NCBI RefSeq assembly: GCF_003334385.1
Contig: NZ_QOWN01000008.1
DNA: 64,000 nt
Direction: 5' to 3' (one strand)
Source of the DNA: Escherichia coli
Lineage (GTDB): Bacteria > Pseudomonadota > Gammaproteobacteria > Enterobacterales > Enterobacteriaceae
Position 1 is the first letter of the stretch; every line of letters begins with the position of its first letter. Position numbers: made by a program. Of this stretch, positions 6,001 to 9,000 are shown piece after piece.

Positions 6001-9000
6001 TTAGACGTATTATTTTTCATTAAAAATGCTTAAGTATGCATTTCAATGCACCACGATAGTGCAACAAACCTGGCGTGCACCATGATGATCATTCCATCAG
6101 GTACAGCTTCCCAGCGACGTATCAGTCACCGTAGACATTAAAGTCGAAATACTTTTTCGCCATCTTGTCGTAGGTGCCGTCCTGACGCAGCTCGCCAAGC
6201 GCCTTATTGAAGGCAGCCGTCAGTTCAGCATCATCTTTACGTAGCCCTACACCGGTGCCATCACCGAAGTATTTTTTGTCTTTTACTGATGAGCCAGCAA
6301 AGGCGAAATCTTTACCAGCAGGTTGCTTGAGGAATCCTTCGCTGGCAGCAACTTCATCTTGTAACGCAGCATCCAGACGTCCTGCAGCCAGATCGGAATA
6401 GACCAAATCCTGGTTGGCATAGGCCACCACATCCACGCCTTTACTACGCCAGGTCTCGTTAGCGTAAGCTTCCTGGGTTGATCCCTGCAGCACACCAACA
6501 TGTTTACCTTTCAGTGAATCCAGCGTTGGCTGAATCGGTGAACCTTTGGCCGCAATCAAACGAGAATCTGCGGCGTACAGCTTGTCGGAGAAGGCAATCT
6601 CCTGCTGACGTTTATCGGTAATGGAAAGCGACGAAATAATAGCGTCGATTTTTTTCGCTTTCAGTGAGGGGATCAGCGCGTCAAAGTCACTGGCAACCCA
6701 GGTACATTTCACCTGCATCCGTTTGCACATCTCGTTACCGAGATCGATATCAAAGCCAACAAAATCACCTTTAGCATCTTTCGATGAGAACGGTGCGTAG
6801 GTGGTATCGGTTCCGATACGTACCGTCTCCGGTAGCGCCGCATAGCTGGAAGCCGCTGTGGAGAGACCGACTAACAAAGACAGAGCGAGAATCGACTTCT
6901 TCATACATAACCCTCAAGTGAAAATGGCTTTTTTATGTTGTGTATTGTGTTGTGTGTTTGCAGGCTCTTTCATGCAGGTCTTATGCCATCTTGACGACAA
7001 CAGTAACATTCAACGTTAAATATGTTAATAAGACGTTGCATTATTGTCCTGAAGTTGAAGATAGCAGGTATAGCGGTTGAATCGCAGCGTTTCGATTGAA
7101 TGGCAGAAACAAAATGTCGAGGATTTGATCGCGGTTGCAAAATTGCCCTGAAACAGGGCAACAGCGGAGTTATGCGCCCTGCCAGCGGGCAAAGAGATCT
7201 TCAGGAAGGGTTATCGCAAACTGGTCAAGAACACGATTAACCGTCTGATTTATCACATCATCAAGGGATTGCGGGCGATGATAAAACGCCGGAACGGGAG
7301 GCATAATCACCGCACCGATTTCTGCCGCCTGAGTCATTAAACGCAGATGGCCTAAGTGCAATGGTGTTTCACGCACGCAGAGCACCAACGGGCGACGCTC
7401 TTTCAGCACCACATCTGCCGCACGGGTCAGTAAGCCATCAGTATAGCTATGGACAATGCCGGAAAGGGTTTTGATTGAACAGGGTAAAATCACCATCCCC
7501 AGCGTCTGGAAAGAACCGGAAGAGATGCTGGCGGCAATATCGCGCGCATCGTGCGTGACATCGGCTAATGCCTGCACTTCGCGCAGAGAAAAATCCGTTT
7601 CGAGGGATAAGGTCTGGCGCGCTGCCTGGCTCATCACCAGATGCGTTTCGATATCTGTGACATCGCGCAGAACCTGTAATAAGCGCACGCCATAAATCGC
7701 GCCGCTGGCACCGCTGATGCCTACAATGAGTCGTTTCATAAATAGTTGCCCTGTCAGACTTGCAGGCAGACTTTGCAGGATTTCGGCGGGAGTTGCAAGT
7801 CAGGGTGCCAGACCGGCACCCTCAGCGAAGGCATCATCCTTCGTTATGCATTTCGAGATTTTCCACTTCGTTCTGACGTTGCACTGCTTTGGCGTCATCA
7901 TTACGTAACGTATCGAGGAAATCGAGGTAGCCCTGATCAACATCTTTGGTGACGTAGACGCCGTTGAACACCGAGCATTCAAACTGCTGGATATCCGGAT
8001 TTTCAGCGCGAACGGCGTCGATCAGATCGTTCAGATCCTGGAAAATCAACCCGTCAGCACCGATGATCTGGCGAATTTCATCAACTTCGCGACCGTGAGC
8101 GATCAGTTCCGTGGCGCTCGGCATATCAATACCATAAACGTTCGGGAAGCGAATTTCCGGTGCCGCAGAAGCGAGGTACACTTTCTTCGCTCCGGCTTCG
8201 CGTGCCATCTCGATAATCTGCTCAGAAGTGGTGCCACGGACGATGGAGTCGTCGACCAGCAGGACGTTTTTATCGCGGAACTCGGCGCGGTTGGCATTCA
8301 GTTTACGGCGCACGGACTTACGACGCAGCTGCTGGCCCGGCATGATAAAGGTGCGGCCAACATAGCGGTTTTTAACGAAGCCCTGGCGGTACGGTTTGCC
8401 CAGAATACGAGCAATTTCCAGCGCGATATCACACGAGGTTTCTGGGATCGGGATCACCACGTCGATATCCAGATCTTCCCATTCGCGGGCAATTTTCTCG
8501 CCCAGTTTCGTGCCCATATTCACACGCGCGCTGTAAACGGAAATTTTGTCGATAAACGAGTCCGGGCGGGCAAAGTATACATACTCAAACAGGCACGGAT
8601 TGCTGACCGGATTGTCAGCACATTGACGGGTAAACAACTGCCCTTCTTCAGTGATGTAAATCGCTTCGCCCGGCGCGACGTCACGCAGGAAATCAAAGCC
8701 CAGCGTATCGAGCGCTACGCTTTCGGAAGCGACCATATATTCTGTACGGTTCTCGTCAATATCACGTTTTCCCAGTACCAGCGGACGAATCCCGTTTGGA
8801 TCGCGGAAAGCAACCATACCGTGGCCGATAATCATCGCCACACAGGCATACGCGCCGCGGATTAAGCGGTTTGTGGCAGCAATGGCAGCGAAAATATTGT
8901 CGGCTTCCAGCGGGTAGTGGCGGAAGTTGTCCAGCTCGCTGGCGAAGATATTAAGCAGAATTTCCGAGTCGGAAGTGGTGTTGATGTGGCGGCGTTTTTC

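What the first reader, a model, noticed from the sequence alone, without database searches (positions are those of the whole stretch)
6973..6988. sigma54-type -24/-12 element upstream of argT
The minus strand reads TGGCATAAGACCTGCA, with correct GG/GC spacing, positioned to give a 50-60 nt leader for argT. This fits nitrogen-limitation (NtrC/sigma54) control of the basic amino-acid binding protein while hisJQMP downstream has its own signals.
Basis: partly seen in the sequence, partly recalled or inferred. Interest (0 to 1): 0.3.

Follow-up and report, generated by a model that had tools for sequence, protein, structure and literature searches.

The report
Known sigma-54 promoter of E. coli argT
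The motif is real and is the already-described nitrogen-regulated (sigma-54/NtrC) promoter of the E. coli argT gene, so it is a correct reading of textbook biology and not a discovery.

Summary
The window is E. coli K-12 DNA. On the minus strand, 6988..6973 reads TGGCATAAGACCTGCA, 69 nt upstream of the argT start codon. GG/GC spacing is canonical and the predicted start at 6962 gives a 58-nt leader.

By count alone the match is not significant: 1 found against 0.44 expected in 64 kb. Its position and conservation are what matter. All 80 orthologous argT loci from other Enterobacteriaceae keep TGGCAY-N6-TGCW, and it is the best-conserved 16-nt stretch of the ubiX-argT spacer (rank 1 of 249).

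Published work already covers it:
- sigma-54 ChIP-seq site OS22 has this exact 17-mer.
- RpoN-holoenzyme SELEX gives a peak in the same spacer.
- The identical site is bound in Salmonella, where argT is a "known" sigma-54/NtrC operon.
- "argTp" is used as an engineering part.

Two nuances:
- A sigma-70 promoter lies just upstream (start about 6994). Without an activator, bound sigma-54 holoenzyme represses it (argT RNA in rpoN+ cells is 23% of the delta-rpoN level).
- E. coli has no consensus NtrC site upstream of argTp, although 36 of 81 sequences compared have one (none in Escherichia, Salmonella or Citrobacter). The strong NtrC site lies about 0.9 kb downstream, before hisJ.

Verdict: already known, low interest.

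The parts
6973..6989 (-). sigma-54 -24/-12 core promoter element of argT (argTp): A-TGGCAT-AAGAC-CTGCA, with GG at 6987-6986 and GC at 6975-6974
   Evidence: Read directly. Identical 17-mer is sigma-54 ChIP-seq site OS22. Conserved in 80/80 orthologous loci. Best-conserved 16-mer of the spacer.
6961..6963 (-). Predicted sigma-54 transcription start (about 6962), inferred from promoter geometry and not mapped in any source I could read
   Evidence: 12 nt downstream of the -12 C. This equals Bonocora's rule (19 bp downstream of motif centre 6981) and their distance of 58 nt to the argT start.
6905..6962 (-). 58-nt argT leader, with a C/A-rich tract (about 6961-6937, GCAAACACACAACACAATACACAAC) and a Shine-Dalgarno GAGGG (6915-6911)
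   Evidence: Sequence. The C/A-rich tract and SD are conserved. argT is a GcvB R1-seed target, verified in Salmonella and detected in E. coli RIL-seq/CLASH/MAPS, bound upstream of the RBS. Rfam finds no known RNA family here.
6122..6904 (-). argT coding sequence (lysine/arginine/ornithine periplasmic binding protein)
   Evidence: ORF list and RefSeq annotation of the identical MG1655 sequence.
7000..7028 (-). Overlapping sigma-70-type promoter candidate: -35 TTAACA (7028-7023), 17-nt spacer, TG-extended -10 TACTGT (7005-7000), start about 6993-6994, so the sigma-54 element lies at +6..+22 of it
   Evidence: Relaxed hexamer scan. It agrees with Schaefer 2015 Table S3, which places the 17-mer at +6 to +22 of an active sigma-70-like promoter. 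The -35 block is conserved across genera; the -10 is not.
7013..7040 (-). Conserved AT-rich block TGCAACGTCTTATTAACATATTTAACG (-78 to -51 of the sigma-54 start). It holds the sigma-70 -35 and might also be an IHF-like bending site. Function not assigned.
   Evidence: Phylogenetic footprint: mean identity 0.87 in all loci and 0.83 in the distant genera.
7054..7094 (-). Two conserved blocks, CGCTGCGATTCAAC (7089-7076) and CCTGCTATCTTCAAC (7068-7054). T(T/G)CAAC hexamers recur at 7081, 7060 and 7040, 20-21 bp apart. They may be weak NtrC half-sites; this is unproven.
   Evidence: Footprint. Best NtrC-consensus scores here are only 7/12 in E. coli, rising to 9/12 in some genera at the same position.
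7111..7139 (-). Second most conserved block of the spacer, TGCAACCGCGATCAAATCCTCGACATTTT. Function unknown.
   Evidence: Mean identity 0.90 overall and 0.89 in distant genera.
7142..7162 (-). Palindrome TGCCCTGTTTCAGGGCA (7160-7144) directly after the ubiX stop codon (7172-7170). It is a terminator-like hairpin and at the same time the best, though weak (8/12), NtrC-like match upstream of argTp. It is the 5' end of the published argTp reporter fragment.
   Evidence: RNA fold -15.1 kcal/mol, z -4.3. NtrC score 8/12, reached by 169 of 500 shuffles. At the same position Raoultella, Klebsiella and others have 10-11/12 NtrC palindromes. Primer mapping places the fragment at 7160..6963.
6047..6063 (.). 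Consensus NtrC palindrome TGCACTATCGTGGTGCA in the argT-hisJ spacer, about 0.9 kb downstream of argTp. It is the only good NtrC site near the locus in E. coli.
   Evidence: Best match in the whole window, 1 mismatch. A site scoring at least 10/12 is present in this spacer in 74 of 81 loci. It lies inside the strong NtrC ChIP-seq peak assigned to hisJQMP (23.7-fold; coordinates converted through the motif anchor 6981 = 2425890).
5950..5965 (-). sigma-54-like element TGGCACGATAAGTGTA upstream of hisJ, with GT instead of GC at -12 in Escherichia
   Evidence: Citrobacter and other genera have canonical TGGCACGATAACTGCA/T at this place. No hisJ sigma-54 ChIP peak appears in the Bonocora main text or supplements.

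Best explanation
This is argTp, the sigma-54 (RpoN)-dependent promoter of E. coli argT. RNA polymerase carrying sigma-54 binds the GG (-24) and GC (-12) element at 6988-6973 and sits there as a closed complex. Under nitrogen limitation, phosphorylated NtrC contacts it by DNA looping and uses ATP to open the promoter. Transcription then starts at about 6962 and yields a 58-nt leader, which carries the C/A-rich GcvB target, followed by argT, with possible read-through into hisJQMP. When NtrC is not engaged, the same bound holoenzyme lies at +6..+22 of a sigma-70 promoter that starts at about 6994, and it lowers that promoter's output. Shown: the sequence, its conservation, sigma-54 occupancy in vivo and in vitro, Ntr-linked expression, and sigma-54-dependent repression of the sigma-70 promoter. 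Inferred: the exact sigma-54 start, and which DNA sites NtrC uses in E. coli.
For: Sequence and geometry. Gene identity. Conservation: 80/80 loci keep TGGCAY-N6-TGCW 66-105 nt before the ATG, and it ranks 1 of 249 windows. sigma-54 ChIP-seq in E. coli shows the exact 17-mer, FAT 12, 58 nt to argT, and that study's supplement scores the motif high across many species. RpoN holoenzyme gSELEX peak in the argT/ubiX spacer, 55-61%. Salmonella has the identical site bound in ChIP-chip, WT/delta-rpoN 3.5-fold with a promiscuous activator, and is listed as experimentally known, NtrC-dependent. NtrC ChIP-seq in N-starved E. coli lists argT. A literature statement names a sigma-54/NtrC promoter for argT. 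argTp-lacZ and argT mRNA rise 2.4- to 3.2-fold in a glnK mutant, where NtrC~P is higher. The 198-bp fragment 7160..6963 drove the strongest GFP of 12 sigma-54 promoters. Dual role: argT RNA in rpoN+ is 23% of delta-rpoN, the motif is at +6..+22 of a sigma-70-like promoter, and sigma-54 inhibits sigma-70 initiation in vitro by 10-60%. A matching sigma-70 candidate was found here.
Against: No source I could read maps the sigma-54 5' end, and EcoCyc status in 2015 was 'predicted'. The primary Salmonella papers could not be opened. The NtrC ChIP signal at argT was only 5.4-fold, p = 0.015, below the authors' cut-off and added by eye. E. coli has no NtrC consensus within 3 mismatches between ubiX and the promoter, and the best score of 8/12 is at chance level. 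In glutamine minimal medium the presence of sigma-54 lowered argT RNA. The reporter fragment of Ma et al. also contains the sigma-70 promoter, and I saw no rpoN/ntrC control for it. The PSSM score of 9.46 is at the low end of bound intergenic sites.
Confidence: 0.88

Rival explanations
1. In E. coli the element works mainly as a repressive sigma-54 landing pad. The stable closed complex sits at +6..+22 of a sigma-70 promoter and blocks it, and productive sigma-54 transcription contributes little. Nitrogen control of argT would then be indirect or come from relief of this block.
For: argT RNA is 4-5 times higher without sigma-54 (RPKM 127 vs 598), and the activator-bypass form deltaRI does not repress (550). 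In vitro, sigma-70 initiation is inhibited by 10-60%. A sigma-70 candidate with the right geometry exists. NtrC occupancy at argT is weak. There is no consensus NtrC site upstream. argT mRNA is abundant in LB interactome data, a condition in which the Ntr response is not expected.
Against: Salmonella, with the identical element, shows sigma-54-dependent up-regulation. argTp activity rises when NtrC~P rises in a glnK mutant. The -24/-12 element is perfectly conserved in 80/80 loci, while the sigma-70 -10 is not conserved even within Escherichia, which argues that the promoter function is what selection maintains. The delta-rpoN strain is a glutamine auxotroph, so indirect effects are likely.
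Confidence: 0.1
2. The match is a chance occurrence of a loose consensus with no role in transcription.
For: 0.44 matches are expected per window and 36 of 100 shuffles have at least one. Several other GG-N10-GC sites in the window score as well on a simple count.
Against: Invariant across 80 genomes spanning about 30 genera while the flanks diverge. Bound by sigma-54 in two species and in vitro.
Confidence: 0.01
3. It is a genuine sigma-54 promoter but is driven by an enhancer-binding protein other than NtrC.
For: No consensus NtrC site upstream in E. coli. Strongly conserved upstream blocks of unknown function at 7111-7139 and 7054-7094.
Against: NtrC ChIP signal at argT and Ntr-linked expression. 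The literature uniformly assigns NtrC. Related genera carry textbook NtrC palindromes at a fixed distance upstream of the same promoter.
Confidence: 0.03

Closest known systems
argTp of E. coli K-12 / argTr of Salmonella Typhimurium (sigma-54, NtrC-activated promoter of argT)
   Same: It is this promoter: identical 17-mer, same gene, same distance to the start codon.
   Different: Nothing differs. The window is 100% identical to MG1655 here.
glnAp2, the archetypal NtrC/sigma-54 promoter
   Same: Both have a -24 GG / -12 GC element, an E-sigma54 closed complex that needs NtrC~P, and nitrogen-limitation control. The two were compared as parts in the same study.
   Different: From established knowledge, glnAp2 has two strong consensus NtrC sites about 110-140 bp upstream. 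E. coli argTp has none upstream scoring above 8/12. Position -14 is C rather than T, and the -19/-18 bases are TA rather than CG.
glmY/glmZ-type overlapping sigma-70 and sigma-54 promoters, and Schaefer Class I/II sites (chaC, patA, mdfA)
   Same: A sigma-54 binding site lies inside the footprint of a sigma-70 promoter, so the two holoenzymes compete.
   Different: At glmY the two promoters fully overlap and share a start. At argT the sigma-54 element lies downstream (+6..+22), so the two starts are about 32 nt apart.
hisJ (dhuA) control region in the same cluster
   Same: It is nitrogen-responsive and bound by NtrC. It carries a consensus NtrC palindrome and a -24/-12-like element.
   Different: Its -12 is GT in Escherichia, no sigma-54 ChIP peak is reported, and it is described as a sigma-70/ArgR promoter.

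Membership tests
sigma-54 (RpoN)-dependent promoter | GG and GC dinucleotides exactly 10 bp apart within TGGCAC-N5-TTGCW | tested here: met
   TGGCAT-AAGAC-CTGCA at 6988..6973. 9 of the 12 specified consensus positions match and GG/GC are in register.
sigma-54 (RpoN)-dependent promoter | Located upstream of, and oriented toward, a gene, at a distance giving a plausible 5' UTR | tested here: met
   Intergenic, same strand as argT, predicted 58-nt leader.
sigma-54 (RpoN)-dependent promoter | Element conserved in orthologous promoters while flanking DNA diverges | tested here: met
   80/80 loci. Specified positions average 0.99 identity against a spacer mean of 0.70. Rank 1 of 249 windows.
sigma-54 (RpoN)-dependent promoter | Occupied by sigma-54 holoenzyme | not testable with these tools
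   Published: ChIP-seq OS22 in E. coli, gSELEX in vitro, ChIP-chip in Salmonella.
sigma-54 (RpoN)-dependent promoter | Transcript 5' end about 12 nt downstream of the -12 GC, dependent on rpoN | not testable with these tools
   Only predicted in the sources I could read. No genome-wide TSS table could be opened.
NtrC regulon promoter | NtrC binding sites (TGCACC-N5-GGTGCA) within a few hundred bp upstream acting as an enhancer | tested here: inconclusive
   E. coli has nothing above 8/12 upstream, which is chance level. 36 of 81 sequences, all from other genera, have sites of at least 10/12 centred 155-195 bp upstream (most at 164-195); Escherichia, Salmonella and Citrobacter have none. A strong site lies 0.9 kb downstream at 6047-6063. 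The 198-bp upstream fragment alone is active in a reporter.
NtrC regulon promoter | NtrC occupancy and NtrC/nitrogen-dependent expression | not testable with these tools
   Published: a weak, manually added NtrC ChIP peak. Expression is up in a glnK mutant. The operon is listed as NtrC-dependent in E. coli and Salmonella.

The most novel reading that the evidence does not exclude
In the Escherichia-Salmonella-Citrobacter lineage, argTp has lost the consensus NtrC enhancer that other Enterobacteriaceae keep about 165-195 bp upstream. In E. coli that position is taken by the end of ubiX and a terminator-like palindrome scoring only 8/12. Activation would then depend on degenerate nearby sites and/or on the conserved hisJ-proximal enhancer acting about 0.9 kb downstream by looping. 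The unactivated closed complex would double as a nitrogen-gated brake on an overlapping sigma-70 promoter.
Probability: 0.2. Interest if true: 0.35.

Novelty: already known. Interest (0 to 1): 0.1.

Why it matters
It matters little as a discovery. The promoter is in EcoCyc and RegulonDB, in two genome-wide sigma-54 binding maps, and is used as a synthetic-biology part. The result does show that the first-stage reader can recognise a true sigma-54 promoter from sequence alone. The only open points are mechanistic. The first is where NtrC binds to activate argTp in E. coli, given that it lacks the upstream consensus site found in related genera. The second is how much of argT expression comes from the overlapping sigma-70 promoter that bound sigma-54 represses. 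Both are modest questions for specialists in nitrogen regulation.

Tried and rejected
1. I searched for NtrC consensus sites upstream of argTp in E. coli. None lies within 3 mismatches, and the best score of 8/12 is at chance level.

2. I tested whether NtrC sites upstream of argT and in the argT-hisJ spacer are mutually exclusive across genera ("enhancer relocation"). Rejected: 33 loci have both, 41 only the downstream site, 3 only the upstream site, and 4 neither.

3. I tried to use the GcvB target in the leader as evidence for the sigma-54 start. Rejected as non-discriminating, because a transcript from the sigma-70 start at about 6994 would also contain it.

4. An Rfam scan of 5000-8000 for a known leader RNA found nothing at E-value up to 1.

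5. The default sigma-70 scan found no promoter between 6989 and 7060. Only a relaxed scan recovered the candidate that matches Schaefer's numbering.

6. The primary and older literature could not be opened: Ames & Nikaido 1985, Thomason 2015, Sharma 2007, Reitzer & Schneider 2001. No mapped sigma-54 5' end was retrieved, and a text search for argT with primer extension gave nothing relevant.

7. "Upstream sequence activation of E. coli argT promoter" (Hsu 1991, seen) concerns, to my knowledge, the tRNA-Arg operon of the same old name, so I discarded it.

8. The RpoN SELEX peak reported at the cvpA/dedD spacer (about window 10163) has no convincing GG-N10-GC motif nearby, best 6-7/12.
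Full report
**1. What is in the sequence**

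The minus strand of the window at 6988..6973 reads TGGCATAAGACCTGCA. GG is at 6987-6986 and GC at 6975-6974, which is the spacing of the sigma-54 consensus TGGCAC-N5-TTGCW. The window is 100% identical to E. coli K-12 MG1655 over 5800-7800. RefSeq annotation gives the following genes on the minus strand:
- purF, 7834-9351
- ubiX, 7170-7739
- argT, 6122-6904
- hisJ, 5119-5901
- hisQ, hisM and hisP further downstream

The element lies in the 265-bp ubiX-argT spacer, in the sense orientation, 69 nt before the argT ATG. A start 12 nt downstream of the -12 C falls at 6962 and gives a 58-nt leader.

**2. Is it more than chance?**

By count it is not. The degenerate pattern TGGCAYN5YTGCW has one match in 64 kb against 0.44 expected, and 36 of 100 shuffles have at least one. 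The strict consensus with two mismatches gives 12 matches against 14.4 expected. A simple consensus count ranks about ten other GG-N10-GC sites in the window equal or higher.

The case rests on position and conservation. I fetched 80 orthologous argT loci, one per species, covering about 30 genera of Enterobacteriaceae with ArgT 85-99% identical.
- All 80 carry TGGCA(C/T)-N6-TGC(A/T) 66-105 nt before the ATG. The only base varying in the loci that fail the stricter pattern is -14.
- In a MAFFT alignment of the spacer, the 16-nt motif window has mean identity 0.945 against a spacer mean of 0.70. It ranks first of 249 windows. In the 53 most distant loci the figures are 0.92 against 0.64.
- Within E. 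coli, the 35-nt core is found in 5411 of 5426 complete genomes, at 99% identity or better in 4589.

**3. What is already published**

- Bonocora et al. 2015 list sigma-54 ChIP-seq site OS22. The motif is ATGGCATAAGACCTGCA, centred at 2425890 (U00096.2), minus strand, gene argT, FAT 12. The predicted start is 58 nt from the gene. EcoCyc status was "P", meaning predicted and not experimentally confirmed. Their supplement scores the motif high in many species.
- Shimada et al. 2021 find an RpoN-holoenzyme SELEX peak in the argT/ubiX spacer.
- Samuels et al. 2013 list argT among four Salmonella operons "experimentally shown" to be sigma-54 dependent, with NtrC as activator. ChIP-chip shows sigma-54 at the identical TGGCATAAGACCTGCATG, with a 3.5-fold WT/delta-rpoN ratio.
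[quoted passage not shown] It describes hisJQMP as using a sigma-70 promoter under ArgR control.
- Brown et al. 2014 list NtrC ChIP-seq peaks for both argT and hisJQMP in N-starved cells.
- argTp-lacZ and argT mRNA rise 2.4- to 3.2-fold in a glnK mutant.
- argTp has been used as the strongest of 12 sigma-54 promoters to drive a biofuel pathway.

The finding is therefore already known.

**4. Coordinate anchor**

Setting the 17-mer centre (window 6981) equal to 2425890 gives an offset of 2418909. This is confirmed in two ways. First, 2425890 - 19 - 58 = 2425813, which corresponds to window 6904, the first base of the argT ATG. Second, Schaefer's read table lists argT plus 100 bp as 2425031-2425913. 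With this anchor:
- the NtrC peak for argT (2425861-2425941) maps to window 6952-7032;
- the NtrC peak for hisJQMP (2424941-2425021) maps to window 6032-6112.

**5. Nuance one: an overlapping sigma-70 promoter**

Schaefer et al. [quoted passage not shown] They report three things:
- argT RNA in rpoN+ cells is 23% of that in delta-rpoN cells (RPKM 127 against 598).
- The deltaRI form of sigma-54 gives RPKM 550, close to the delta-rpoN level.
- Sigma-54 reduces sigma-70 initiation at argT in vitro by 10-60%.

Cells were grown in Gutnick glucose medium with 5 mM glutamine.

That numbering puts the sigma-70 start at about 6994. A relaxed hexamer scan finds a matching candidate: -35 TTAACA (7028-7023), 17-nt spacer, TG-extended -10 TACTGT (7005-7000), start about 6993. 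The -35 lies in a block conserved across genera. The -10 is not conserved even among Escherichia species.

So the element probably has two roles. It is an NtrC-activated promoter, and when not activated it acts as a brake on the sigma-70 promoter. Expression is rpoN-dependent, but the sign depends on conditions.

**6. Nuance two: where is the enhancer?**

In E. coli, no NtrC consensus (TGCACC-N5-GGTGCA) within three mismatches lies between ubiX and the promoter. The best score is 8/12, for TGCCCTGTTTCAGGGCA at 7160-7144, and 169 of 500 shuffles reach that score. This palindrome follows the ubiX stop codon directly. It folds as a stable hairpin (-15.1 kcal/mol, z -4.3) with a short T-run, so it looks like the ubiX terminator.

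In 36 of the 81 sequences, there is an NtrC palindrome scoring at least 10/12, centred 155-195 bp (mostly 164-195 bp) upstream of the -24 element. These come from Enterobacter, Klebsiella pneumoniae, Raoultella, Pluralibacter, Pseudocitrobacter, Trabulsiella, Silvania and others. One example is TGCACCTGCAGGGTGCA, 12/12, in E. cloacae. No Escherichia, Salmonella or Citrobacter sequence has one.

In contrast, the argT-hisJ spacer carries a site of at least 10/12 in 74 of 81 loci. In E. coli this is TGCACTATCGTGGTGCA at 6063-6047, the best NtrC match in the whole window. It lies under the strong NtrC ChIP peak (23.7-fold). [quoted passage not shown]

The reporter fragment of Ma et al. is window 7160..6963, which I mapped from their primers. 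It is strongly active without the hisJ-proximal site. However, it also contains the sigma-70 promoter, and I saw no rpoN or ntrC control.

Which DNA NtrC uses at E. coli argTp therefore remains open. The options are the degenerate palindrome, the T(T/G)CAAC repeats at 7081/7060/7040, the downstream enhancer, or activation from solution.

**7. The leader and downstream signals**

The leader contains a conserved C/A-rich tract (about 6961-6937) and a conserved Shine-Dalgarno sequence. argT is an established GcvB R1 target, bound upstream of the RBS. This is verified in Salmonella and detected by RIL-seq, CLASH and MAPS in E. coli. It does not discriminate between the two starts. Rfam finds nothing in 5000-8000.

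Upstream of hisJ there is a -24/-12-like element, TGGCACGATAAGTGTA (5965-5950), with GT at -12 in all Escherichia. Citrobacter and several other genera have canonical TGGCACGATAACTGCA/T at the same place. No sigma-54 peak is reported at hisJ. So "hisJQMP has its own signals" is right, although the cluster is also treated as one argT-hisJQMP operon.

**8. Verdict**

The feature is the known argTp promoter, so novelty is "already known" and interest is low. The residual questions are the mapped start, the enhancer location in E. coli, and the balance between the sigma-54 and sigma-70 promoters. They are specialist points that the experiments listed under next steps would settle.

Noticed in passing
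window 5950-6082 (argT-hisJ spacer): The best NtrC palindrome of the window (6047-6063) sits about 90 bp upstream of a -24/-12-like element (5950-5965). In Escherichia the -12 of that element has decayed to GT, while Citrobacter, Franconibacter, Pseudocitrobacter and others keep a canonical TGGCACGATAACTGCA/T. NtrC binds here strongly in vivo, but no sigma-54 ChIP peak is reported.
   Followed up: partly
window 7142-7162, and L028, L051, L052, L029 at the equivalent position: The hairpin just after ubiX is at the same time the nearest thing to an NtrC site upstream of argTp (8/12). In Raoultella and Klebsiella the same position holds a 10-11/12 NtrC palindrome followed by a T-run. Enterobacter has an extra 10-12/12 site 30 bp further upstream. 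One palindrome may serve as both terminator and enhancer.
   Followed up: partly
window 7111-7139 and 7054-7094: Strongly conserved upstream blocks (GCAACCGCGATCAAATCCTCGACATTTT, CGCTGCGATTCAAC, CCTGCTATCTTCAAC) have no assigned factor. T(T/G)CAAC hexamers recur at 20-21 bp intervals.
   Followed up: no
L009, L011, L015, L016, L048, L054, L060, L076, L077, L080 etc., 34 nt upstream of the -24 element (equivalent to window 6989-7022): Many genera carry a 6-9 bp inverted repeat between the TTAACATATTTAACG block and the -24 element, and its sequence covaries (CGTCGA/TCGACG, CGCCGA/TCGGCG, CGTCAA/TTGACG, CGCAGTC/GACTGTG). 21 of 70 distinct sequences fold with z < -2. E. coli K-12 lacks it (z +0.8).
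   Followed up: partly
window 6937-6961: The C/A-rich tract at the very 5' end of the predicted sigma-54 transcript corresponds to the published GcvB R1 target of argT.
   Followed up: partly
L082 (E. coli strain B27, NZ_AP027424.1) 2169-2570: This is a natural variant in which ubiX and the whole -24/-12 element are missing. Unrelated sequence joins purF to the argT leader, resuming at CATGAAAGAGCC (window 6974 downward). It affects 1 of 5426 genomes and could be a real rearrangement or an assembly artefact.
   Followed up: partly
window 55271-55286 (+): TGGCATACATTATGCA matches the intragenic evgS sigma-54 ChIP site listed in Schaefer 2015 Table S3 (CTGGCATACATTATGCA). Another strong consensus match, TGGCACCTTGGGTGCA, lies at 40067-40082 (-).
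   Followed up: no
window about 10163 (dedD/cvpA junction): Shimada 2021 lists a weak (31-32%) RpoN-holoenzyme SELEX peak here. I found no convincing GG-N10-GC motif within about 300 bp (best 6-7 of 12).
   Followed up: partly
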